A program made the position numbers and the translations under genes. Source: Candidatus Brennerbacteria bacterium (GTDB lineage Bacteria; Patescibacteriota; Minisyncoccia; UBA6257; GWB1-50-10). Taken from it: DNA of 64,000 nucleotides. The notes beneath the pieces were generated by a model. It was not told where the DNA came from and ran no database searches. It saw nothing but the letters and a program-made list of their open reading frames with translations. The stretch covers positions 9,553-73,552 of the forward strand of contig JAZDNP010000008.1 in NCBI GenBank assembly GCA_043799565.1. The letters run 5' to 3'. Of the stretch, positions 25,689-64,000 are shown piece by piece (positions within the stretch are counted from its first letter, which is position 1; every line of letters begins with the position of its first letter).

Positions 25689-26267
25689 ATGCTTTCCTAT
25701 AACGAATTGAAGGTCGGTACGATCTTCACCAAAAACGAGGACCCGAATCCGTACCGGGTTATAGAGTACGCCTTCATCCGCATGCAACAGCGGAAACCGG
25801 TGACTCAGTTGAAGATAAAGAATCTCCTCACCGGGAAGGTGCTGGACTATGCGGCACACCAAAACGAGAGCTTTTATGAGGTGGAAATAGAGAATACGCC
25901 GGTAAACTTCATCTACCACAGCAAAGGAGAATACTGGTTTCATGAGAAAGGAAAACCCGCTGCGCGATTCAAATTGCCCGACGAACTGGTGGGAGATGCC
26001 GGCCAATTTCTCAAGGTGAACACGGAGGTAAAAGCATTCAAGTTTAGAGACGCCATTATTTCAATTGAGCTTCCCGTGAAAATGGAACTCAAAGTGACCG
26101 AGGCACCGCCCGCCATCAAAGGCAACACCGCACAAGGCGGCACGAAGACCGTGACGTTGGAGACCGGAGGCAAAGTGAACGTTCCCCTCTTCATCAACGA
26201 AGGCGACATCGTGCGCATCAATACGGAAACTGGCGATTACGCGGAGCGCGTAGAGAAAGGGAAATAG
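25689..26267 (+). CDS. efp: Elongation factor P
   Basis: 192 aa, three-domain EF-P (KIKNLLTG, GDxAQGGTK, VPLFINEGD). Confidence 0.92.
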   Translation: MLSYNELKVGTIFTKNEDPNPYRVIEYAFIRMQQRKPVTQLKIKNLLTGKVLDYAAHQNESFYEVEIENTPVNFIYHSKGEYWFHEKGKPAARFKLPDELVGDAGQFLKVNTEVKAFKFRDAIISIELPVKMELKVTEAPPAIKGNTAQGGTKTVTLETGGKVNVPLFINEGDIVRINTETGDYAERVEKGK

Positions 26268-26269
26268 AA

Positions 26270-26304
26270 GATAAAAAAGAGGACGATTGGATTTCCAATC
26301 GTCC
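26270..26304 (-). terminator. Rho-independent terminator of the RT gene (bidirectional context, convergent with efp)
   Basis: Perfect 11-bp stem GGACGATTGGA-TT-TCCAATCGTCC immediately after the RT stop, followed on the minus strand by UCUUUUUUAUCU. Confidence 0.75.
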
Positions 26305-26307
26305 CCG

Positions 26308-27426
26308 TTACTGTGTCTCCGAACAAAGCCTTGCCCACGGCCGCGCAACCTGTGGCGGCAACGTGGGGCCATAGACTCCGTGGAGATAATCCACGTACCC
26401 TTTCGCCCTTGCACGAAGGTTCTCGTCAAAGATGGCGCGGTGAATGATAGCGCGTATCTTCCGTATCTCCTTCTTCGGCACGCTCACCGAATCACCCGGC
26501 AAACGTTTTGATCCGTCCCGCGACCCGATATGCACCAGTCGAAGCCCCGTCACAAGCGGTGCAATCTGCCTGCGGTCGAAGAATAGTGTTTTATCCCTAT
26601 TGAACCGGAACACTCCTTCTTCTTCCACTATGGCCATGAACGCTTCAACGTCGGAAACCGCGATGGGGGTCGCCGAGGAAATGGTAAAGTCGTCGGCGTA
26701 CACGGATACGCGCACCGCGATACCCTTCTCCTCAAACCATTGCTGTGCCATTTGCGGGACTCCGTAGTGTGAAAGCACGAGGTCCAAAAGGAATGGTGAT
26801 GTCGGCGCGCCCTGTGGTAATGCCCCCCGATACGTCACGAGCGGTATCAATGTATCAAGAAATTCCTCAAGCACCTGATGGTGTTTCACGTTCCGTAACC
26901 ACTTGGGCGGCGGACCGGGCAGAAGAAGTTTCCGAAACCATTTTGCCTTTCTCGTGGAAAACAGGGGTGGGCGCGGATAATCACGTCTCCCCTCTTTACT
27001 CACATCGGCGGCAAGGAGCCGGCACGTGAGTACTTCCGTGGCCACAATCTGTGCGAGCACTTTCCGCACTACAACTCCGGTCACTGAAGGGAACGCGTCC
27101 TTGAGGTCCAGCCGTACCACGTACCGCGCATCGGCGCGCGCATGAAGGCGCGCGTTCGTCACTGAAGAGCGCCCCGGCAGAAATCCGTGGATCTGTGGCG
27201 CGAGCCATCCTTGCTGCCATATCCGATAGAGGAAATACTGCAGAAACTTCCGCTGGAACCTTTTCACGATAGGGTACGGAACCGCGATAGACCGCACGCC
27301 GCCACGCGGTTTCCTTTTCTTGTGGACCTCGTAATGGTCCTGGAACCGGATCGCGTGCTCGAGTTTGGTCTCGGGCCACCCCAACACGCCCGCGAGCAAT
27401 TGCGTGCCGTTGAATAGATAATGCAC
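26308..27426 (-). CDS. Retron-type reverse transcriptase
   Basis: RT1 KRKPRGGVRSIAVP; RT2 HGFLPGRSSVTNARLHA (NAxxH); RT3 LDLKDAFPSV; RT4 LPQGAPTSP; RT5 YADD; VTG triplet after RT7; 372 aa, no maturase/endonuclease domain; GGGAGGTG SD. Confidence 0.85.
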   Translation of the reverse strand: MHYLFNGTQLLAGVLGWPETKLEHAIRFQDHYEVHKKRKPRGGVRSIAVPYPIVKRFQRKFLQYFLYRIWQQGWLAPQIHGFLPGRSSVTNARLHARADARYVVRLDLKDAFPSVTGVVVRKVLAQIVATEVLTCRLLAADVSKEGRRDYPRPPLFSTRKAKWFRKLLLPGPPPKWLRNVKHHQVLEEFLDTLIPLVTYRGALPQGAPTSPFLLDLVLSHYGVPQMAQQWFEEKGIAVRVSVYADDFTISSATPIAVSDVEAFMAIVEEEGVFRFNRDKTLFFDRRQIAPLVTGLRLVHIGSRDGSKRLPGDSVSVPKKEIRKIRAIIHRAIFDENLRARAKGYVDYLHGVYGPTLPPQVARPWARLCSETQ

Positions 27427-27970
27427 GTTACTTCACCTCCCTTCTCCGTATTTTGATAAAGAACGGGCGTGGAGCGACCACTACAGGATCGCTCCACATG
27501 AGTGTGCTTGTCTCAGAGACCGTCAGGAAAGTTGAGATGGGTTGACTTCCGCCCGTTCGAGTTCCCTGCGATGCGGAGTGACTGCTCCGCAAGGTGCGAA
27601 TGGTCGAATGTCGGAGTTGATGGCGGCGAACCGTCCGGATGTTGCGCCGCTGATTCCCAACCGTTCCTCCGGCAGCCAGGTACTGACCACCGTTCCTCAA
27701 AAGAAAAGTACAACAGGATAAAACTCAAGCGACACCTTGCTCACAACCGAAAAGCCGAGGTTGTCAGCTTGCCCACCGTAAGCGTAGGGGTGAGGGTGGG
27801 GTGCGGTCAAGTTTTATCGGTGCAGGTCGTGAAACCGCGGGCGTGAGCTCGCGGATGAACGACCGCGATTGACTGGTGCGCCCGGTGGGCGCACCTTGCC
27901 GACACAACCGCCATGGTGCCGCTCGCGGAAAGCCCCACGCGTGAGCGTGGGGTTCGCCGCGCGGCCGGTT
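27427..27970 (-). ncRNA. Candidate retron non-coding RNA region (msr-msd-like): ORF-free, hairpin-rich leader of the RT gene
   Basis: 544 nt with no plausible ORF on the RT strand; multiple perfect hairpins (27934-27953, 27876-27896, 27479-27507), a 9-bp long-range inverted repeat CGAACGGGCG...CGCCCGTTC enclosing two hairpins just upstream of the RT SD, and ~18-nt direct repeats; exact RNA boundaries unknown. Confidence 0.45.
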
Positions 27971-29917
27971 TTATTCCTTCAGTTTCCCCAGGGCATCCCG
28001 GAGCGCGCTCTGCAAACCCTTAATGTCCGGCTCGCCATCGTCCCACGAGGGTTTTTTGTTTTCCTTCGCCTCCGTGGGCGTAAGTTCACTGAGACGCAGC
28101 TTGTGCTCTTCCTCTTCGCTCGCGACGGATGGACTCGTGTTAACATCCCGAAGAATAGACGCACGGCGTACCGGACTGGCCGGCGCTGTTTCGCGAGGAG
28201 GCGTGGGTGAACGGGCGTGTTCCGGTCTCGGACCCAAAGAAGAAACGGGACGTGGCCTTTCTTCACGCGGAGCCGCAGGTGGGCGCGGCCCTACCTCTGC
28301 TGACGGGCGCGGCACCGGAGCACCACTGCGTCCACCGAACTCAATGCCGAGTTTGGCAAGATCCGCCATATTACCCGCCTCTTCACGCGCAGATGGCGCG
28401 CGTGGTACCCGTACTGGCTGCAACTCGCCCGCTTTTATTTTTTTCAAACAATCCTGACAGTATACAGGCCGTCCCGGCAAAGGCTTGAAAGGCACCGTGG
28501 TCACTTTATTGCACGCAGAGCACGTTACTTCAAATTTCCCCTCCACTCCTCCCCCTGACTGAGAAGTAAATCCCCCCTCTCCCGAAGCCGGAGGGCCACC
28601 ACTACTTTCGCCCATAATGCCGCCTGCCCAGCGTGAGATTTCTTCCTCCACTGCCTGGCGGGACTTCGCATAGCGCCTGCGTGATTCCGAAATCACCATC
28701 TCCACGGTACTTTCGGAGCTTTCCACCTTGAACGGCGGGAGGGTATGTGCGGAAAACGGGCGCGAGGTTACGCCGTCCACCATAAGTTTCAGATAGATGG
28801 TGTAGTTCGGCAGATTCACAATATCTTCCGGCAGAAGCTCCGGAGTGAATTCCTGTTCTAAAAATTCAGCGTCTGCCGCACCCACGCGGAACACCACCAT
28901 AGTCCCCACGTTGCCGAACACCGCATCGCGCACCTTCGTAGATACGTCCGTCACAAGCTGGCCGATATACTGGTGTGCAAGGATGAGGTCTAGGCGGTAT
29001 TTCCGCGATTCTGAAAGAATGCCCGCAAATGAATCGGTCGCAAAGTTTTGGAACTCGTCTACGTAGAGGTAAAAGTCCACACGCTCTTCCTCGGGAATAC
29101 GCACGCGCTCCATCGCGGCGAGTTGAATCTTCGTAATGAGCATCGCACCTAAGAGTGCCGAGTTGTCCTCTCCAATACGCCCCTTAGATACGTTCACAAG
29201 AAATATCTTCCCGTCGTTCATTATCTTGAAAATATCCAACGTGCTTTGCGGCTGGCCCACCACATTCCTAATCATCGCGGTGGAAAGGAATTGACCCACT
29301 TTGTTCTGAATAGGTGCGATGGCTTCGTTCCTAAACTGATCGCGCCATTCTTCAAATTCGTTCAACCAAAACGAGCGCACCACCGGGTCTTTTACGTTCG
29401 CAAGCATCTGCTGGCGATATTGCTTGTCCACTAAAATGCGGCTGATACCGAGAAGCGTGGAACCGGGCGTATCTAAAAGCGCCAGCACCGCGTTGTTCAG
29501 AATGTATTCCATGCGCGCGGACCATGTGCCCGCCCATATCTTCGTGAAAATACCCATGAGCCCCGAAGCCACGAGGTGTTTGTATTTCGGGTCTGGCAAT
29601 TCCAGCACGTTGAACCCCATCGGGAACTCGCTGTCCGCGGGATTAAAATACACCACGTCCTTCAGGCGCTCTTTCGGTATCTTTTTCAAAATCGACTCCA
29701 CCAACTCACCATGCGGGTCCACTACGCATACCCCCTCACCATTCGCAATGTCCTGGATGATGAGGTTGTGGAGCATGGCGCTCTTCCCCGTCCCGGTCTT
29801 CCCGATGACGTACATGTGCTGCCTCCGGTCGGTGCGCTTGATGCCGAAAAGCTGATTTTTGTTCCGGAAATCTATGCGTCCGAAGTAGGCAACGTTCTTT
29901 TCAGGAGCGTCTTCCAT
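27971..29917 (-). CDS. VirD4/TraD-like (FtsK-HerA superfamily) P-loop ATPase with C-terminal zinc ribbon and Pro/Arg-rich tail
   Basis: Walker A GKTGTGKS, Walker B-like VDEFQNF, TraG-D_C-like region; CSACNK-x17-CQDC ribbon; low-complexity P/R-rich C-terminal ~150 aa; paralog at 62862..end of window. Confidence 0.8.
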   Translation of the reverse strand: MEDAPEKNVAYFGRIDFRNKNQLFGIKRTDRRQHMYVIGKTGTGKSAMLHNLIIQDIANGEGVCVVDPHGELVESILKKIPKERLKDVVYFNPADSEFPMGFNVLELPDPKYKHLVASGLMGIFTKIWAGTWSARMEYILNNAVLALLDTPGSTLLGISRILVDKQYRQQMLANVKDPVVRSFWLNEFEEWRDQFRNEAIAPIQNKVGQFLSTAMIRNVVGQPQSTLDIFKIMNDGKIFLVNVSKGRIGEDNSALLGAMLITKIQLAAMERVRIPEEERVDFYLYVDEFQNFATDSFAGILSESRKYRLDLILAHQYIGQLVTDVSTKVRDAVFGNVGTMVVFRVGAADAEFLEQEFTPELLPEDIVNLPNYTIYLKLMVDGVTSRPFSAHTLPPFKVESSESTVEMVISESRRRYAKSRQAVEEEISRWAGGIMGESSGGPPASGEGGFTSQSGGGVEGKFEVTCSACNKVTTVPFKPLPGRPVYCQDCLKKIKAGELQPVRVPRAPSAREEAGNMADLAKLGIEFGGRSGAPVPRPSAEVGPRPPAAPREERPRPVSSLGPRPEHARSPTPPRETAPASPVRRASILRDVNTSPSVASEEEEHKLRLSELTPTEAKENKKPSWDDGEPDIKGLQSALRDALGKLKE

Positions 29918-29939: not shown

Positions 29940-30449
29940 TTATCTTTTGATTTCTACGAGGAGCGAAGGAGTACCACGCTTCGGTTTCCCGCTCGCATAC
30001 ACGTCCACCGTGTCGCCAAAATAGCGCATTGCTTCCCCTACCGTCCGTGCGGGGGGCTGGCCTTCAACGTTCGCGCTCGGCGCGACAAGCGGACCAGTCT
30101 TTTTAAGAAGGATGCATAGTGTTGTGGATTTCGGCACGCGGAACGCGAGCGTCTTCGTCCCCCGGTGGAGATACTGGAACTTCAGTGACGGGCACGGGAA
30201 AATAATACTTATCGGCCCGGGCCATACTTGATTCAAAAATGCTCTCACCCGCGCATCCGGACGAATGCCGAATTTTACAATGTCACGCGGCGAGGAAATA
30301 AGAACAATGAACGGTTTCTTCGGACTCCGCTTGCGCAGACGGTAGATACGCTCCACCGTCTTCCTTTTCACCGCGGAACCCACGACGCCCAATATCGTGT
30401 CGGTCGGCATGACCGCAACCCCGCCGTTGTTCAAAATATGTTCAATCAT
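29940..30449 (-). CDS. tsaC: L-threonylcarbamoyladenylate synthase (TsaC/YrdC family)
   Basis: YrdC fold motifs VAVMPTDTILGV and SANVEGQPP; 169 aa. Confidence 0.8.
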   Translation of the reverse strand: MIEHILNNGGVAVMPTDTILGVVGSAVKRKTVERIYRLRKRSPKKPFIVLISSPRDIVKFGIRPDARVRAFLNQVWPGPISIIFPCPSLKFQYLHRGTKTLAFRVPKSTTLCILLKKTGPLVAPSANVEGQPPARTVGEAMRYFGDTVDVYASGKPKRGTPSLLVEIKR

Positions 30450-32191
30450 TACACCAATACGGCGCGGATGCGGCGGACGCCGGCGCCAACGGCCTCTTCT
30501 TTGGATATCTTAATGCGTCCAATCTCCCCTGTGTGGGTAACGTGCGGACCGCCGCAAAACTCCTTACTCCAAGCACCTTCAAGTGAGTGTCCCACGTAAT
30601 ACACTTTCACGCGGTCGGGATATTTCTCCTTGAAGAAATACATCGCGCCGGTTTTCTCCGCTTCTTCCTTCGCCATTTCTTGAAACTGCACCGGAAGATC
30701 TTCCTTTATCTTTTCATTCACCAATTCCTCGACTTTCCACAGCTCTTCCTTCTCCACCTTGCGTGAGAACGAGAAGTCAAAACGGGTGCGTTCGGGTGTG
30801 ATGTCCGACCCGCGCTGTCCTACCTCCGACCCCAGCACTTCGCGAAGCGCGCGCTGGAGCAAGTGTGTTGCGGTGTGGAGGCGCGTTACCTTTTTCAGCT
30901 CCTCTTCGTCCCCCGCTTTCAATTCTCCGGTGTTCAAAATAAGACCGTGGCCTCCGAATTTCTTCACCGCACCCGCTCGGGAAATCTCCTGGTGTTTTTC
31001 AAACTCTTTATCAAAATCCTCACGCGCAAGTTTTGACGCCTTTTCGCCGCCAAGCTCTTTCAAAACCTCATAGGGTAATCCGTAACTTTCAAAAAGCGTG
31101 AATGCTCCCTTCGCATCCAATAAATTCACCTTCGCAAGCTCCTTCAAGCCCACCGCAAGCGTCTTCTCAAACCGCGCACGCTCCGCATTCCATTCTTCCA
31201 ATACCACTTCGGCATTCAGATCCGGGTAGAACTTTTCGTAATGCTCGTGCACCTCGGCAAAAAGATGCGCGGGGTCTACGGGATTTCCAGCAAGGTGAAG
31301 ATGGGTCACGAGGCGGCGCATGAGGCGCCGGAGCACGTACCCCGCTTCCTTATTGGAAGGACGCACACCGTCTGAGATAAGGAACGCGATGCCGCGAACA
31401 TGGTCAGCGAGGATGCGCCGCGTCCGCTCGGACAAATTCTCCGGCAAAAGCTTCATAAGCGGCGAGAAAAGATCCGTTTCAAAAATGGTCGGCACACCCT
31501 GCGACACCATCGTAAGACGCTCCAAACCCATACCTGTATCCACGCCCGGTGTTTTTAATGGAACGAGTTTCTTGTTTTTATCGCAGTAGAACTCGTTGAA
31601 AACGATATTCCACACCTCCAAACTCTTTCCTTCCGCGCTTTTAACATAAATCTCGGTCGTAGGACCACATGGACCTTCCGAACCGGTGGGGCCCCAAAAC
31701 ACGTCTGTGCCTTCGCCTCGAATGTCCTTCACCCCAAGCTTTTCCCAGAACGCGCGGGAATCGTCGTCGCGCGGCACGCCTTTCCGCCAATCACCATCGG
31801 GGACCTTCGCGGGGTCAAAGACCGAAACATAATCTATCGGGAGCCTCATCACCTTCGTGATAAATTCGTACCCGTACTCAATCGCTTCTTTTTTGAAATA
31901 ACCTCCGAACGAGAAATTTCCGAGCATCTCAAAGAACGTGAGGTGTGATTCGTTTCCCACTTCGTCAATATCCGAGGTTCGGAATGACTTCTGAACCGAT
32001 ACGGTGCTCTTCTCGCCAAAATCTTTCATCGCATCAAGCTCCCCCGTGTAATACCGCTTGAATTGCTGCATTCCGGCGGTGGTAAGAAGCACCGAAGGGT
32101 CGTCGGGCACAAGCGATGAGGAGCGCACCACCGCGTGGCCGCGCGCTTTGAAGAATTCAAGGAATTTCGTCCGTATTTCGCTTCCCGACAT
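30449..32191 (-). CDS. alaS: Alanine--tRNA ligase, short form lacking the C-terminal C-Ala domain
   Basis: FKARGH, LLTTAGMQQFK, HLTFFEMLGNFSFGGYFK catalytic motifs; editing domain HTATHLLQ and CGGPHV; ends right after the editing domain (580 aa). Confidence 0.88.
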   Translation of the reverse strand: MSGSEIRTKFLEFFKARGHAVVRSSSLVPDDPSVLLTTAGMQQFKRYYTGELDAMKDFGEKSTVSVQKSFRTSDIDEVGNESHLTFFEMLGNFSFGGYFKKEAIEYGYEFITKVMRLPIDYVSVFDPAKVPDGDWRKGVPRDDDSRAFWEKLGVKDIRGEGTDVFWGPTGSEGPCGPTTEIYVKSAEGKSLEVWNIVFNEFYCDKNKKLVPLKTPGVDTGMGLERLTMVSQGVPTIFETDLFSPLMKLLPENLSERTRRILADHVRGIAFLISDGVRPSNKEAGYVLRRLMRRLVTHLHLAGNPVDPAHLFAEVHEHYEKFYPDLNAEVVLEEWNAERARFEKTLAVGLKELAKVNLLDAKGAFTLFESYGLPYEVLKELGGEKASKLAREDFDKEFEKHQEISRAGAVKKFGGHGLILNTGELKAGDEEELKKVTRLHTATHLLQRALREVLGSEVGQRGSDITPERTRFDFSFSRKVEKEELWKVEELVNEKIKEDLPVQFQEMAKEEAEKTGAMYFFKEKYPDRVKVYYVGHSLEGAWSKEFCGGPHVTHTGEIGRIKISKEEAVGAGVRRIRAVLV

Positions 32192-34030: not shown

Positions 34031-35071
34031 TTATGCCGCAACCGTATGGAGATCCGCCGCAACCGCTTGAAAACGCTTCATCGCTTCCTCAAGTGCTCCC
34101 TCGTCACCTCGGGTCTCGGCGAGACGCACATCGCGCCGCGCACTTTCCTGTCGCCGCTTCAAAACCGCGATCTTCAACTGTGTTATTAAATCCTTATATT
34201 CGCGCGCGAGCGCATCCTTCGGGAGCCGTGCGATGAGATAGGATGCCTGCATCTCAAACGCCTGTGCCGACTGGGAAGCCGGCTCTTCAAAAGCTTTCCG
34301 AATATGATCGGGAAGCCATTCTTTGTTTTCCGTGATTGTAGCAAGAAATTCAGGCGCGGTAAAGGCGACGACACCAAGACGGTTTGCAACCATTTCCAAT
34401 CTTCCTTCCGCTTCCCGCTCTGGCGTGATCTCTGCGACCGGTACGGGCTTCGCATCCACAGGGGTCATTTCAAACTCTTCCAAAAGCGCTACTTCCGAAA
34501 TGTGGGACGCGGCCGCAAGTTCTTTTACCGTCGTCATCTGCTCCACCGCGCTCGGCAACTTTTTTATTTTTGAAAGAAGTGAGCGAAGCACGCGCTTCAC
34601 GACTGCGGTGTCACCCACGTCTTTATCCGAAAAATAGTGTTTGAAAAGCATGCGGAACGCAGGCGCGGCCGTTTGTACCGCCTCCACGAGAATCTTCGGG
34701 TCCTTCACGGCAATTTCCGCAGGGTCCTTGGCTTCGCCGAGATCCATCGCTTTCACGTGAAAATCGAACGCATGGAAGGTATCCATCGCACGCTCCAGGG
34801 CGTGAAGTCCGGCCTCGTCGTTGTCAAAAGAAAGCACTACGCTGTCCGCAATGCGCCGCAAACGTTCCAGGTGGTGGGCGGTAAGCGCAGTACCCGAAAC
34901 TGCAACCACATTTTTCACTCCCGATTGCCAGCACATCAAAAGGTCCATCTGACCTTCCACAAAAACCGCTTCCCGCGCCGTCGCAATATCGCGCTTCGTC
35001 GCGTGAAGACCATACAGTATCTTCGATTTTGAAAAGATGGGTGTCTCGGGACTATTCACATATTTTCCCAC
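34031..35071 (-). CDS. dnaG: DNA primase DnaG, C-terminal fragment (TOPRIM domain onwards); frame-disrupted
   Basis: KYVNSPETPIF, EGQMDLL, SFDNDEAG TOPRIM motifs; the reported start is GTG inside the 3' end of the N-terminal fragment ORF, in a different frame. Confidence 0.8.
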   Translation of the reverse strand: MGKYVNSPETPIFSKSKILYGLHATKRDIATAREAVFVEGQMDLLMCWQSGVKNVVAVSGTALTAHHLERLRRIADSVVLSFDNDEAGLHALERAMDTFHAFDFHVKAMDLGEAKDPAEIAVKDPKILVEAVQTAAPAFRMLFKHYFSDKDVGDTAVVKRVLRSLLSKIKKLPSAVEQMTTVKELAAASHISEVALLEEFEMTPVDAKPVPVAEITPEREAEGRLEMVANRLGVVAFTAPEFLATITENKEWLPDHIRKAFEEPASQSAQAFEMQASYLIARLPKDALAREYKDLITQLKIAVLKRRQESARRDVRLAETRGDEGALEEAMKRFQAVAADLHTVAA

Positions 35072-35718
35072 CCCCTCTCGGTCGCCCGAGGGTAAATGCG
35101 CCCGGTAAACGCTACCACGCGCCCCACCGCGTTCATAAGCGGGAACATAATGCGATTTTCAAACCGGTCACGATGGAGCCCTCCGGTTTTAAGCGCCAAC
35201 CCCGACCGCACGATATCGTCCACCGAAAAACCTTTCTGGATGAGATACAACGTAAGCGATTCCCCGCCAGGGGCAAATCCAAGTCCAAACATCTTCGCCG
35301 TTTCTCCCGTAAGGCCACGGGATTTCAGATATTCCTTCGCCTCAACCGATTCCACGAGCGCACGCTCGTAAAATGCGCGCGCCTCGTCGTGGAGCGTGTA
35401 GAGTACGCCGAACTCACGTTCGTGCGCGGGGTTCAGTGATTGGAGCGTAAGACCGACCTTATCCGCGAGAAATTTGAGCGCCTCCGGGAACTCCATGTTC
35501 TCGTAGCGCATCACAAACGAAATAGTATCGCCGCCCGCACTACAGCCGAAACAGTGCCACGATTTCCGGTCCGGCGACACAATAAACGACGGGGTTTTTT
35601 CGGGGTGAAAAGGACAGAGCGCCTTGAAATTCTTTCCCGCCGGCTGGAGTGAGAGATAGCCGCGGATGACCTCCACCACATCCAATCGTTCTTTCAATCG
35701 ATCTACATCGCGGTTCAT
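35056..35718 (-). CDS. dnaG: DNA primase DnaG, N-terminal fragment (zinc-binding and RNA-polymerase N-terminal region); frame-disrupted
   Basis: CPFHPEKTPSF...WHCFGCSAGGD zinc ribbon; start at internal Met MNRDVDRLKERL (35718); ORF track extends to 35988 across the RRM-protein gene. Confidence 0.8.
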   Translation of the reverse strand: MNRDVDRLKERLDVVEVIRGYLSLQPAGKNFKALCPFHPEKTPSFIVSPDRKSWHCFGCSAGGDTISFVMRYENMEFPEALKFLADKVGLTLQSLNPAHEREFGVLYTLHDEARAFYERALVESVEAKEYLKSRGLTGETAKMFGLGFAPGGESLTLYLIQKGFSVDDIVRSGLALKTGGLHRDRFENRIMFPLMNAVGRVVAFTGRIYPRATERGWENM

Positions 35719-35800
35719 TGTTTTGAGTGTACCTCCGCTATGGCGTTTGCCGCAAACAAAAACCCCGACCAAAGGTCGGGATTCTTGTATAGGAGCTGAA

Positions 35801-36124
35801 TTAGCCCCGGTCGTATCCACCACCAAACCCACGGCCTCCACCGAAGCCACCGCGACCCCCTCCTGCACCTCCTTCCTCGCGGGGGCGAGCTTCGTTGACC
35901 GTAAGTTTCCGACCACCGATGTCCCGGCCATTGAGTTTCTCAATGGCGGCATCAGCTTCAGAGTCGGAAGACATCTCAACAAATCCAAAGCCTTTTGAAC
36001 GGCCGGAGAATTTGTCGGTGATGACGGTGGCGGACGACACGGTTCCTGCCTCCGCGAACATGTCCTTAAGTTCGGACTCGTTCGTCGAGTAGGGCAGGTT
36101 CCCTACGTAAAGTCGTTTCGCCAT
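35801..36124 (-). CDS. RRM-type RNA-binding protein with Gly-rich C-terminus
   Basis: RNP2 LYVGNL and RNP1 KGFGFVEM; GGAGGGRGGFGGGRGFGGG tail. Confidence 0.88.
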   Translation of the reverse strand: MAKRLYVGNLPYSTNESELKDMFAEAGTVSSATVITDKFSGRSKGFGFVEMSSDSEADAAIEKLNGRDIGGRKLTVNEARPREEGGAGGGRGGFGGGRGFGGGYDRG

Positions 36125-62862: not shown

Positions 62863-64000
62863 CAGTTTCTTAGCCGTTCCCGTATTTCCTTTTCGACCTC
62901 CTCGCGCCGGCGTCCGTAGCGTGTACGCGAACGTTCTCGTATGGAGGCGCGGAGCGTTTCGTCCCCGTGCGCTCCAGGCACGAGCGCAAGCGAAAACGGC
63001 GGGGAAGTTTCTCCGTCCACTAAAAGTTTCAATGCGCCGCGGAAGTTATCCAAGTTCGTAAGATCGTCGGGAGTGAACGTGCCGCCAAGCTGTTTTGCAA
63101 GTATCTCCGCGTCCGGCGCGCCCACGCGAAATACCAGCGAGGACCCGACGTTTCCGAATACCGCATCGCATATCTTTTCCGTAAGTTGCCCCAGGAATTG
63201 GTGCGCAATGGTGAGGTCTAAGCGATACTTCCGCGCTTCGGAGAGGATAGTCGCAATGGAATCGGTCGTGAAATTTTGGAACTCGTCTATGGAAAGATAG
63301 AAATCGCGCCGCGAGGTCTCAGGCATATCGCCACGCCCGAGCGCGGCCATCAGGATCTTACCCACTACCACCATGCCGAGAAGCGAGGCATTCATGTCTC
63401 CAATCTTCCCTTTCGCGAGATTCACGAGAAGAATTTTCCCGTTGTCCATAAGTTCGCGGAAATTGAGCGCGGAGTGCGTTTGGCCCACGATAATCCTCAT
63501 ATAGTCGTTTGAGGTGAACGCAGCGAACTTTGAGGTGATGTAAGGCGTCATGTTCGCGAGCGCCGCTTCGCCTCCCGCCTTCGTCGCTTCCTTTTCCCAG
63601 AAATCCTGCACGGTAGGGTTCGTAATGCGCGCAAGCTTCCGTGTGCGAAACGCCGCGTCGGTAAAAACGCGCGGAACTTCCATAAGCGTCGCCGGCTCCA
63701 CCGCGCTGTCTTCCATGAGAAGCAGGAGTGCGTTCCGCATGTACTGTTCGAACATCGGGCCTCCCGTGGCTTTCAGGTCGTAGAGCCGGTCGAATATACC
63801 GAGGAGCTCGTTCACAATAAACGTCTTTTCCTCTGGCCGCGAGTGGTCGTGCTCTATCATATTGAGCCCTAAGGGGAACTCCAGGTCGGAGGGGTCAAAA
63901 ACAACGACGTCGTCCATGCGTTTGGGCGGTACCAGCGCGAGAAGCCGTTCTATAAGATCGCCGTGCGGATCAATAACGGCAACACCTTTACCCTCCGCCA
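62862..64000 (-). CDS. VirD4/TraD-like P-loop ATPase, paralog of 27971..29917 (5' end beyond window)
   Basis: Frame stays open to the window edge and reads ...AEGKGVAVIDPHGDLIERL..., matching ANGEGVCVVDPHGELVESI of the other copy; shared LVNxxKGxIGxxNxxLLG, DEFQNF, FRVGAxDAE blocks; stop overlaps tpiA start. Confidence 0.8.
   Translation of the reverse strand, partial: AEGKGVAVIDPHGDLIERLLALVPPKRMDDVVVFDPSDLEFPLGLNMIEHDHSRPEEKTFIVNELLGIFDRLYDLKATGGPMFEQYMRNALLLLMEDSAVEPATLMEVPRVFTDAAFRTRKLARITNPTVQDFWEKEATKAGGEAALANMTPYITSKFAAFTSNDYMRIIVGQTHSALNFRELMDNGKILLVNLAKGKIGDMNASLLGMVVVGKILMAALGRGDMPETSRRDFYLSIDEFQNFTTDSIATILSEARKYRLDLTIAHQFLGQLTEKICDAVFGNVGSSLVFRVGAPDAEILAKQLGGTFTPDDLTNLDNFRGALKLLVDGETSPPFSLALVPGAHGDETLRASIRERSRTRYGRRREEVEKEIRERLRN

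What the first reader, a model, noticed from the sequence alone, without database searches (positions are those of the whole stretch)
26270..29917. Retron-type reverse transcriptase with its own structured ~540-nt leader, adjacent to a zinc-ribbon P-loop ATPase, embedded between efp and tsaC/alaS
The 372-aa ORF carries the full retron RT signature: RT1 KRKPRGGVRSIAVP, the retron-specific NAxxH (HGFLPGRSSVTNARLHA), LPQGAPTSP rather than a DGR-type motif, YADD, and the VTG triplet after RT7. It has no maturase or endonuclease domain. It has its own strong SD and its own intrinsic terminator, so it is an independently expressed unit. It is preceded on the same strand by 544 nt of ORF-free, hairpin-dense sequence. 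Retron RTs normally act with an ncRNA and one or two effectors. No canonical effector is present (no HNH, TOPRIM, TIR, NDT, PRTase or protease). The only same-strand neighbour is a 648-aa TraD/VirD4-like ATPase with a CxxC-x17-CxxC ribbon and a long Pro/Arg-rich tail. This could be an undescribed retron architecture (ATPase-ncRNA-RT) in a lineage where retrons are rarely reported. Alternatively it is a minimal RT-plus-ncRNA unit next to an unrelated housekeeping ATPase.
Basis: partly seen in the sequence, partly recalled or inferred. Interest (0 to 1): 0.75.

Follow-up and report, generated by a model that had tools for sequence, protein, structure and literature searches.

The report
Effector-less retron-like RT with new ncRNA
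A candidate-phyla-radiation bacterium carries a compact, self-contained reverse transcriptase gene preceded by a previously uncatalogued structured RNA. It resembles a bacterial retron but has no toxin or effector partner, and the ATPase next door is an unrelated core gene.

Summary
A 372-aa RT (26308-27426, minus strand) has all the retron signatures, its own SD and terminator, and a structured upstream region.

The RT belongs to a small, retron-like clade: about 41 clusters at 90% identity, and every named member is a CPR bacterium. No defined retron type matches it better than the others.

In all 13 loci I could read, the RT follows a TTGAC promoter and a conserved ncRNA. In the window this ncRNA is about 318 nt (27458-27775), not 544 nt. 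Its parts are:
- P1, a helix that pairs the 5' and 3' ends;
- P2, a second long-range helix;
- an invariant 9-bp hairpin;
- a variable domain;
- a GC-rich terminal hairpin.

Covariation and permutation tests support these helices. Rfam 15 has no match.

The proposed ATPase-ncRNA-RT architecture is not supported. The ATPase is a core Patescibacteria gene with at least 8000 clusters, 94-97% identical between close relatives where the RT is 59%. Nine of 13 RT loci lack it. A syntenic relative has ATPase and efp 44 nt apart with no RT.

No effector is conserved within 4 kb.

Best reading: an orphan retron-like RT plus ncRNA module that probably makes msDNA. Its biological role is open.

The parts
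27805..27810 (-). -35 box TTGACC of the module's own promoter
   Evidence: A TTGAC lies 80-140 nt upstream of the invariant hairpin in all 13 loci. In AT-rich relatives it is followed after 17 nt by a good -10 (TATTAT, TAAAAT).
27781..27786 (-). putative -10 box TACGCT (18-nt spacer)
   Evidence: Its position matches the -10 of relatives. It matches the consensus weakly, so the promoter scan did not flag it. Inferred.
27458..27775 (-). conserved ncRNA, about 318 nt, from the predicted 5' end to the U-rich tail
   Evidence: Single-sequence folds of 13 homologs share one architecture. Further support comes from RNAalifold, pair counts, permutation tests and the covariance model.
27771..27775 (-). 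P1 5' strand (UGGGC) at the predicted transcript 5' end
   Evidence: It pairs with 27464-27468. The equivalent strands differ in sequence but pair in 11 of 13 loci (GGGCC/GGCCC, AGGCC/GGCCU, UCCUGG/CCAGGA, AGCGUG/CACGCU, GUCAAG/CUUGAC and others). Own-versus-cross permutation: 0 of 20000.
27743..27764 (-). 5' hairpin ACAACC..GGUUGU, specific to this clade
   Evidence: MFE fold. A hairpin sits at this position in L085, but not in the shorter relatives.
27727..27736 (-). P2 5' strand GGUGU-C-GCUU, followed by G and a U/A-rich linker
   Evidence: It pairs with 27501-27509. RNAalifold recovers this helix in clade B with compensatory changes. Permutation test: 2 of 20000.
27670..27692 (-). invariant hairpin CGGUGGUCAG-UAC-CUGGCUGCCG (9-10 bp stem, 3-nt loop)
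   Evidence: Present in all 13 loci, with G-C/A-U/G-U exchanges in the stem. Found by model R1 at E=0.005. Likely the RT recognition element (inferred).
27622..27652 (-). hairpin CAGCGGCG...CGCCGCC
   Evidence: Conserved in the window, L085, L209, L211 and L081 (6 invariant pairs).
27526..27670 (-). variable domain: long stem GGAGGAACGGUUGGG/CCCAUCUCAACUUUCC enclosing two hairpins
   Evidence: MFE fold. Among homologs this region has no conserved sequence, and the P2-enclosed span that contains it ranges from 95 to 217 nt. One candidate for the reverse-transcribed part (inferred).
27501..27509 (-). P2 3' strand AAGC-ACACU
   Evidence: It lies immediately 5' of the terminal hairpin, as in all relatives.
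27469..27497 (-). GC-rich terminal hairpin (11 bp)
   Evidence: Present in all 13 loci with different sequences. Flagged as terminator-like. The alternative candidate for the msd.
27464..27468 (-). P1 3' strand GCCCG
   Evidence: It lies 0-2 nt after the terminal hairpin in every locus that has P1 (sequences; test).
27458..27463 (-). conserved U-rich tail (G)UUCUUU
   Evidence: GUUCUUU or a near variant follows P1 in nearly all loci. Its role is unknown; it may be an attenuator.
27434..27441 (-). Shine-Dalgarno GGGAGGTG
   Evidence: Sequence. A GGAGG-type SD is conserved in the homologs.
26308..27426 (-). retron-like reverse transcriptase, 372 aa
26279..26306 (-). terminator hairpin plus T-run after the RT, shared with convergent efp
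   Evidence: It marks the right edge of the ~1.67-kb indel relative to the empty site in L215.

Best explanation
Window 26279-27810 is a self-contained two-part retroelement of the retron kind. One promoter drives a structured ncRNA of about 318 nt, followed by a 372-aa RT.

Shown:
- The RT is most similar in sequence and predicted fold to retron RTs, but belongs to none of the defined retron types.
- The RT family is small, and every taxonomically named member is a CPR bacterium.
- The ncRNA always accompanies the RT. It has two covarying long-range helices: P1 closes its 5' and 3' ends, and P2 encloses an invariant hairpin and a variable domain. It ends in a GC-rich hairpin.
- No protein-coding partner is conserved next to the RT.
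- The module is present or absent between close relatives, at a site between two convergent core genes.

Inferred by analogy with retrons:
- The RT recognises the invariant hairpin.
- The closing helix places a 2'-OH primer next to the template.
- The RT copies part of the ncRNA into an RNA-linked single-stranded DNA (msDNA). The copied part is either the terminal hairpin onward (if P1 is the a1/a2 duplex) or the variable domain (if P2 is).

The downstream role is not determined. The most likely options are phage sensing with an unlinked partner, or an effector-independent role. The adjacent ATPase is a housekeeping neighbour and not a component.
For: RT class:
- The 25 best PADLOC hits listed (of 37 at E<=0.01; the others were not shown) are all retron RT models, at 58-113 bits.
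- NCBIfam lists three retron-family models ahead of group II (retron_St85 1.8e-26 against group II 5.6e-10).
- In the PDB profile search the 12 best hits are retron RTs (7e-25 to 6e-15), against about 1e-7 for group II RTs.
- The AF2 model has pLDDT 93. Its 15 best Foldseek PDB hits are all retron RTs (4e-14 to 5e-11). GsI-IIC scores 6e-11, DRT2 1e-9, DRT9 1e-8 and DGR 5e-7.
- NAxxH, QGxxxSP, YADD and VTG are conserved in 41 homologs.

ncRNA:
- The motif and architecture are present in 13 of 13 loci.
- RNAalifold, run on MAFFT alignments that were not fitted to any structure, recovers P2, the invariant hairpin and the terminal hairpin in clade B. It recovers P1 in clade A.
- 89% of cells pair, against 29-45% when the partners are slid; 8 pairs show double changes.
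- Position-anchored own-versus-cross duplex permutation gives 0 of 20000 for P1 and 2 of 20000 for P2.
- Covariance model R1 hits only upstream of family RTs. It finds nothing upstream of the RT in 79 other RT loci from the genome scan (mostly generic retron-type; not individually checked), and nothing in the empty site.

Autonomy:
- Only efp (5 of 13 loci) and the ATPase (4 of 13) recur near the RT.
- The empty site L215 has ATPase and efp 44 nt apart in otherwise identical gene order.
- No retron accessory model is hit by the other 65 window ORFs.
Against:
- No guanosine is invariant directly after either candidate a2 strand. G follows P2 in 8 of 13 loci and C or U in the others, so retron-type 2'-OH priming is not demonstrated.
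- The architecture has two nested closing helices and a terminator-like hairpin plus U-tract before the RT. This is not the textbook msr-msd layout.
- P1 is absent in L095 and L212.
- All known defensive retrons need an effector, and none is found here.
- Only 13 loci were examined, and the transcript ends are predicted rather than measured.
Confidence: 0.65

Rival explanations
1. This is a three-part retron in which the zinc-ribbon TraD/VirD4-like ATPase is the effector (ATPase-ncRNA-RT).
For: - The ATPase lies on the same strand, directly upstream of the ncRNA.
- The arrangement ATPase-ncRNA-RT-efp recurs in L085, L209 and L211.
- Some retron types do use ATPase effectors (Mestre 2020, PMC7736814).
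Against: - The ATPase family has at least 8000 clusters, against about 41 for the RT.
- Nine of 13 RT loci lack the ATPase.
- L215 keeps ATPase and efp with no RT.
- The ATPase N-terminus is 94-97% identical where the RT is 59%. The recurrence is therefore inherited synteny of one clade.
- The ATPase has its own terminator-like hairpin just after its stop codon (27929-27952; seen in the sequence and as the hairpin aligned; the terminator scan did not flag it). The module has its own promoter.
- A paralog without an RT lies at the window end.
Confidence: 0.04
2. The upstream RNA is mainly a cis-regulatory leader that controls RT expression, for example as an attenuator or antiterminator. It is neither a template nor a primer.
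For: - A GC-rich hairpin followed by a conserved U-rich tract lies 20-110 nt before the RT SD in all loci.
- P1 and the terminal hairpin could be alternative or stacked elements that gate read-through.
Against: - The U-tract is separated from the terminal hairpin by the 4-7-nt P1 strand, so this is not a canonical intrinsic terminator.
- A 160-330-nt multi-helix RNA with an invariant hairpin and end-to-end pairing is far more than an attenuator needs.
- Every characterised member of the closest RT lineage uses its adjacent ncRNA as primer-template (established retron biology).
- The two roles are not mutually exclusive.
Confidence: 0.12
3. The RT-ncRNA pair works by a non-retron mechanism like the single-gene DRT systems. 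Examples are rolling-circle cDNA concatemers that encode a toxic never-ending ORF (DRT2), or untemplated or homopolymer synthesis (DRT9).
For: - The composition is two-part (RT plus upstream ncRNA, no effector), as in DRT2.
- P2 brings the two ends of an internal segment together, which is what template jumping requires.
Against: - No stop-free frame is conserved in the P2-enclosed segment. L085, L211, L083, L095 and L087 have stops in all six frames, and segment lengths are often not multiples of 3.
- The RT is closer to retron RTs than to DRT2 or DRT9 in fold (4e-14 against 1e-9 and 1e-8). DRT2 and DRT9 do not appear in the PDB sequence-profile hits at all.
Confidence: 0.08
4. This is a decaying or selfish remnant with no current function, such as a relic of a group II intron or a DGR.
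For: - The module is dispensable, since it is absent from the syntenic relative L215.
- The RT evolves much faster than its neighbours.
Against: - All catalytic and signature residues are invariant across 41 homologs spanning 34-64% identity.
- The ncRNA helices are maintained by compensatory changes.
- There is no Rfam hit to group II intron or any other family, and no maturase domain.
- The leader has no TR/VR-like repeat in 64 kb.
- The RT4 motif is QGxxxSP, not the DGR type.
Confidence: 0.04

Closest known systems
Canonical retrons (for example Retron-Eco1/Ec86, Eco7/Ec78, Eco2/Ec67)
   Same: - The RT has the same lineage signatures (NAxxH, VTG, YxDD) and the closest fold and sequence matches.
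- The ncRNA gene lies immediately upstream on the same strand.
- The ends of the ncRNA pair, as a1/a2 do.
- A conserved stem-loop lies upstream of a variable stem-loop region.
   Different: - No effector gene or fused domain is present.
- The RT has a family-specific insertion of about 50 aa between RT3 and RT4 (YPxxPLFSxKKVKWFR).
- The ncRNA has two nested long-range helices plus a terminal GC hairpin and U-tract.
- No invariant branching G is evident.
- The module sits among core translation and replication genes, not in prophages or defence islands.
- Every named host is a CPR bacterium.
Orphan retrons of the Retron-Eco5 (Ec107) branch (Mestre et al. 2020, PMC7736814)
   Same: They are RT plus msr-msd without an associated protein. 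[quoted passage not shown]
   Different: - The RT clade is different: the PADLOC RT_Ec107-like model scores only 82 bits, no better than the other types.
- The ncRNA is different.
- Here the effector-less state is seen at all 13 loci examined across several CPR lineages, not as a secondary loss inside an effector-bearing type.
Type XIII (myxobacterial) retrons
   Same: Type XIII retrons show a moderate correlation with host phylogeny, taken as a sign of vertical inheritance. Here RT identity to the window RT broadly tracks the identity of the neighbouring host genes, closest relative highest and most distant lowest.
   Different: Type XIII retrons have SWIM/winged-helix and HEAT-repeat partner proteins and their own ncRNA type. 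None of these is present here.
DRT2 (UG2) two-component RT-ncRNA defence
   Same: It consists of only an RT and an upstream structured ncRNA.
   Different: - The RT lineage is different.
- No never-ending-ORF template is present.

Membership tests
Retron | The RT groups with retron RTs rather than with group II, DGR, UG/Abi or CRISPR RTs. | tested here: met
   PADLOC, NCBIfam, PDB profile and Foldseek searches all rank retron RTs first. No full phylogeny was made.
Retron | Retron RT signature motifs are present: NAxxH, VTG after RT7 and an intact YxDD. | tested here: met
   N91, H95, D245 and D246 are invariant, and T293 and G294 are invariant or nearly so, in 41 homologs.
Retron | A structured ncRNA gene lies adjacent on the same strand and is co-inherited with the RT. 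| tested here: met
   Present in 13 of 13 loci. Covariance-model hits occur only next to family RTs.
Retron | Inverted repeats (a1/a2) pair the 5' end of the msr with the 3' end of the msd. | tested here: met
   P1 pairs the predicted 5' end with the segment after the terminal hairpin in 11 of 13 loci. P2 is a second candidate. Transcript ends are predicted, not mapped.
Retron | A conserved branching guanosine lies at the 3' end of the a2 strand. | tested here: inconclusive
   G follows the P2 5' strand in 8 of 13 loci, and C or U follows in the rest. After P1 an (A)GC occurs within 1-8 nt in most loci but not all (read).
Retron | The system produces msDNA (RNA-linked multicopy ssDNA). | not testable with these tools
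   This needs expression and small-DNA analysis, or read-coverage analysis of the source metagenomes.
Retron | A cognate effector protein or fused domain is co-localised with the RT (tripartite system). | tested here: not met
   No shared neighbour exists other than efp and the core ATPase. Pfam finds only RVT_1 in the window RT. The longer family member tested (P0017) and the longer, more distant relatives tested also show no effector domain.
One of the 13 defined retron types (Mestre 2020) | A type-specific RT clade with a matching ncRNA and effector. | tested here: not met
   All type models hit all 41 members at similar, modest scores, with none standing out. The NCBIfam retron_St85 score is 93 bits against a cut-off of 235.
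ATPase-containing retron (type I-like) | The ATPase co-occurs and co-evolves specifically with the RT. | tested here: not met
DRT2-like | A UG2 RT and a template segment that reads as a stop-free repeat ORF. | tested here: not met
Diversity-generating retroelement | A TR/VR repeat pair and DGR-type RT motifs. | tested here: not met
   The leader has no repeat in 64 kb. The motif is LPQGAPTSP. The DGR RT is only the 49th Foldseek hit.
Group II intron | Ribozyme domains flank the ORF, and the protein has a maturase (X) domain. | tested here: not met
   No Rfam intron hit. Pfam finds RVT_1 only.
Catalogued RT-associated RNA motifs (Rfam msr, RT-1 to RT-19 of Weinberg 2017) | A match to the family covariance model. 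| tested here: not met
   No Rfam 15 family matches the ncRNA in the window at E<=10 or in seven homologous loci at E<=1. That the RT motifs of PMC5737381 are in Rfam is from memory.

The most novel reading that the evidence does not exclude
This CPR-restricted RT-ncRNA pair is a genuinely effector-independent retron relative. On this reading its reverse-transcribed product has a self-contained role. That role might be a new cDNA-based immunity or regulatory mechanism, or a domesticated cellular function in ultra-small episymbiotic bacteria. The module would be retained largely vertically beside core genes rather than in mobile defence islands.
Probability: 0.2. Interest if true: 0.8.

Novelty: new variant of a known kind. 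Interest (0 to 1): 0.5.

Why it matters
Retrons are understood as three-part toxin-antitoxin-like defence systems. CPR bacteria are reported to carry mostly DGR-type RTs, about 80% (PMC8632793).

Here a coherent clade of retron-like RTs, found so far only in CPR bacteria, keeps a strongly constrained ncRNA but no effector. That gives a clean natural test of what an RT-ncRNA core does on its own. It also adds a new structured RNA family with clear covariation.

The RT is compact (372 aa) and has a defined ncRNA scaffold, so it may be of practical interest for retron-based DNA production.

The result also corrects a tempting mis-annotation: the neighbouring 'type IV secretion' ATPase is a core Patescibacteria gene, not part of the element.

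Tried and rejected
It returned almost only unrelated retron RTs. These served afterwards as negative controls for the covariance model.

2. The metagenome scan for the invariant-hairpin DNA motif returned 120 stretches. Only one, L095, has the RT. The rest are chance matches, as expected for a degenerate 21-mer in that much sequence.

3. Model R1, built from the short-ncRNA clade, did not find the window with default filters. With filters off it found only the invariant and terminal hairpins. I did not build a pan-family model.

4. A DRT2-style stop-free ORF in the template segment was rejected.

5. A DGR was rejected.

6. Known Rfam families, including tmRNA, RNase P and RT motifs, gave nothing.

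7. Small proteins encoded in the leader were rejected.

8. Fused effector domains were sought in longer relatives. None was found among the close relatives tested. Only a distant 1381-aa kinase-RT fusion turned up.

9. Target-site duplications or repeats at the indel edges were not seen.

10. Defence or retron-accessory genes were sought elsewhere in the window. There were none. The PADLOC 'RT_UG29/RTasDnaG' hits (two ORFs) are most likely the two halves of housekeeping DnaG, an inference.

Full report
WHAT IS THERE

The window comes from a Candidatus Brennerbacteria (CPR/Patescibacteria) genome: the RT is 100% identical to an NCBI protein of that name.

On the minus strand the gene order is alaS (30449-32191), tsaC (29940-30449), a 648-aa ATPase (27971-29917), a 544-nt gap, and a 372-aa RT (26308-27426). 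efp (25689-26267) converges on the RT from the plus strand.

Pfam finds only RVT_1 in the RT. An SD precedes the GTG start, and a hairpin with a T-run follows the stop codon. The gap folds far better than its shuffles (z = -4.8).

Two details need correction. Mechanical ORFs of 71-114 aa do cross the gap, but their translations are not conserved. Only about 318 nt of the gap is the conserved RNA.

WHAT KIND OF RT

Every line of evidence ranks retron RTs first.
- The 25 best-listed PADLOC models are retron RT models. They score 58-113 bits, and none stands out. The same holds for all 41 family members.
- NCBIfam gives retron_St85 at 1.8e-26, far below its cut-off, against group II at 5.6e-10.
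- A profile of the family finds 12 retron RT structures in the PDB at 7e-25 to 6e-15. Group II RTs score about 1e-7.
- The AlphaFold model is confident (pLDDT 93.3). Its 15 best Foldseek matches are retron RTs. The group II RT GsI-IIC scores 6e-11, DRT2 1e-9, DRT9 1e-8 and a DGR RT 5e-7.

The family proper is small. There are about 41 clusters at 90% identity with 34-64% identity to the query. Roughly 50 full-length representatives appear among 1.84 billion cluster representatives.

Every member that carries a taxonomic name is from a CPR lineage: Brennerbacteria, Jorgensenbacteria, Kerfeldbacteria and Saccharibacteria.

The family shares a conserved insertion of about 50 aa between RT3 and RT4.

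THE ATPASE IS NOT PART OF IT

I read 13 loci that encode this RT family.

Only four have the ATPase: the window, L085, L209 and L211, all from the Brennerbacteria/Jorgensenbacteria clade. The other nine sit beside unrelated core genes. These include a tRNA and an ABC transporter, RNase Y and HU, SmpB and tmRNA, rnpA and dnaA, a DHH phosphoesterase and trigger factor, and RNase HII and L32.

Clustering all ORFs within 4 kb of the RT finds only efp (5 loci) and the ATPase (4 loci) as shared families.

The ATPase family itself is very large. At least 8000 clusters reach E<=1e-20, and the top 120 are all full length (>=76% of the query covered) at 61% identity or more, across Patescibacteria.

The decisive case is a close relative, L215/L216. 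It has the same order as the window: dnaG, rpoD, alaS, ATPase, efp, mnmA, comEC, MBL and aspS. There the ATPase stop and the efp stop are 44 nt apart, with no RT, no ncRNA and no covariance-model hit.

Identities to the window make the same point.

| Locus | ATPase N-terminus | efp | mnmA | RT |
|---|---|---|---|---|
| L085 | 97% | 91% | 71% | 59% |
| L215 | 94% | 76% | 70% | absent |
| L209 | 85% | 71% | 55% | 57% |
| L211 | not comparable (only 52 aa of the ATPase N-terminus lie on this contig) | 75% | not on contig | 53% |
| L086 | absent | 39% | not on contig | 38% |

The recurrence of ATPase-RT is therefore inherited synteny. The module is a dispensable indel of about 1.67 kb (26300-27970) that evolves much faster than its neighbours. 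No target-site duplication was seen.

THE NCRNA

All 13 loci share the following, in order:
- a TTGAC -35 box and, after 17-18 nt, a -10 box;
- a 5' strand (P1) that starts 35-38 nt after the TTGAC, which is at the predicted transcript start;
- the 5' strand of a second helix (P2), which commonly ends in ..GCUU and is followed by G and an A/U-rich linker;
- one or two hairpins;
- an invariant hairpin, GCAGUCAG-UAU-CUGGCUGC (window 27670-27692), with G-C/A-U/G-U exchanges in the stem;
- a domain of no conserved sequence, within a P2-enclosed span of 95-217 nt;
- the 3' strand of P2 (AAGC..);
- a GC-rich terminal hairpin (window 27469-27497);
- the 3' strand of P1, 0-2 nt later;
- a conserved (G)UUCUUU tail;
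- an SD, and then the RT.

P1 is made of different sequences in different loci:
- GGGC/GCCC
- GGGCC/GGCCC
- AGGCC/GGCCU
- UCCUGG/CCAGGA
- GCCUG/CAGGC
- AGCGUG/CACGCU
- GUCAAG/CUUGAC
- GGGGUC/GACCCC

Support for the structure comes from four independent analyses.
- Single-sequence MFE folds recover P1 and P2 in most loci.
- RNAalifold was run on MAFFT alignments not fitted to any structure. It predicts P2, hairpin 1, the invariant hairpin and the terminal hairpin in the short clade. It predicts P1, the invariant hairpin, a GCGGCG hairpin and the terminal hairpin in the window's clade.
- On the short-clade alignment 89% of cells pair, against 29-45% with slid partners. Eight pairs have changes on both sides, against 2-4 with slid partners.
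- An alignment-free, position-anchored test compared each locus's own strands with those of the other loci. It gave 0 of 20000 permutations for P1 and 2 of 20000 for P2. Fisher-combined shuffle p is about 2e-5 for each helix.

A covariance model from the short clade finds the RNA only upstream of family RTs. It found nothing upstream of the RT in 79 other RT loci from the genome scan (mostly generic retron-type; about 0.9 Mb). With filters off it detects the window's invariant hairpin (E=0.005) and terminal hairpin.

Rfam 15 has no match in the window or in seven homologous loci.

HOW IT MOST LIKELY WORKS

Shown: a promoter, ncRNA and RT unit is maintained by selection. The catalytic residues are invariant and the helices are kept by compensatory change.

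Inferred from retron biology:
- The RT binds the invariant hairpin.
- A closing duplex juxtaposes a ribose 2'-OH primer and the template.
- Part of the RNA is copied into msDNA.

Two assignments fit the data. P1 may be the a2/a1 duplex, with the terminal hairpin as the start of the msd. Alternatively P2 may be the a2/a1 duplex, with the variable domain as the msd.

A priming G is not invariant in either reading, so this step is uncertain.

The terminator-like hairpin and U-tail may also attenuate RT expression.

No effector is encoded nearby, and no PADLOC retron accessory model is hit by the other 65 window ORFs. The biological output is therefore unknown. It could be an unlinked partner, as Mestre et al. 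discuss for orphan retrons (PMC7736814), or an effector-independent role.

ALTERNATIVES REJECTED
- DRT2-like never-ending ORF.
- DGR (and the RT motif).
- Group II intron.
- Leader peptides.
- Fused effectors in relatives.

NOVELTY AND SCORE

My literature searches found no description of retron-like elements in CPR bacteria. Reviews state that about 80% of CPR RTs are DGRs.

The RT is a retron relative, and orphan retrons are a known idea. I therefore class this as a new variant of a known kind. It is a lineage-restricted, effector-less clade with a new and well-supported ncRNA architecture.

Interest is about 0.5.

Noticed in passing
window 27811-27970: About 160 nt of GC-rich (about 0.60-0.62, against about 0.53 on average), hairpin-dense sequence lies between the ATPase stop and the module promoter. 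It includes the ATPase terminator-like hairpin (27929-27952) and a near-perfect palindrome (27875-27895). In L085 and L209 the TTGAC promoter starts within a few nt of the ATPase stop, so this segment is window-specific. It has no other copy in the window.
   Followed up: partly
window 27971-29917 and 62865-64000: The TrwB/VirD4-like ATPase with a CxxC-x17-CxxC zinc ribbon and a Pro/Arg-rich tail is a core, highly conserved Patescibacteria protein (at least 8000 clusters; N-terminal 400 aa 94-97% identical in relatives). It is annotated only generically as 'type IV secretion DNA-binding'. A 43-44% identical paralog whose C-terminus ends without the zinc ribbon or the tail sits next to tpiA at the window end; its N-terminal part runs off the window. 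The cellular role of the ATPase (DNA uptake?) is undescribed here.
   Followed up: partly
window 34034-35988: DnaG primase is split into two overlapping ORFs. ORF 35059-35988 has the Zn ribbon and part of DNAG_N. ORF 34034-35071 has the end of DNAG_N and Toprim. The relative L215 has a single 563-aa DnaG. This may be a frameshift, an assembly error or a genuine split. These two halves most likely explain the PADLOC 'RT_UG29' and 'RTasDnaG-like' hits.
   Followed up: no
window 29940-30449 versus L215 5984-6001: tsaC (Sua5/YciO/YrdC) lies between alaS and the ATPase in the window and in L085. It is absent from that position in the otherwise syntenic L215. This is a second indel in the same short region.
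   Followed up: no
L086 6001-7807; window 25689-27426: The RT converges directly on efp in a Kerfeldbacteria locus too (RT 38% and efp 39% identical to the window). No other neighbour is shared there. This could be an ancient retained position or a preference for the efp terminator. It remains unexplained.
   Followed up: partly
L081 5595-5667; L083 5340-5411: tRNA genes lie just upstream of the module. In L081, tRNA-Arg ends about 20 nt before the -35 box. In L083, tRNA-Phe lies about 340 nt upstream. This may hint at insertion next to tRNA genes.
   Followed up: partly
L087 4780-5548: tmRNA and smpB lie on the opposite strand immediately upstream of the RT-ncRNA module in this locus.
   Followed up: no
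L086 12094-13212: A DUF3800 gene lies 4.9 kb downstream of the RT, next to an rve-family transposase. DUF3800 is the domain used by type VII retrons. The gene is separated from the RT by six housekeeping genes, so it is probably unrelated.
   Followed up: no
protein P0280: A distant relative of the family is a 1381-aa protein with an N-terminal Ser/Thr protein kinase domain and a C-terminal RT.
   Followed up: no
window ORFs: PADLOC models MzaA (1e-60), LmuA (6e-20) and Avs1a (2e-12) are each hit by one window ORF that I did not identify. The window is otherwise core housekeeping (EF-G, RpoB/C, GroEL, RelA/SpoT, FtsW), so these are probably generic-domain hits.
   Followed up: no
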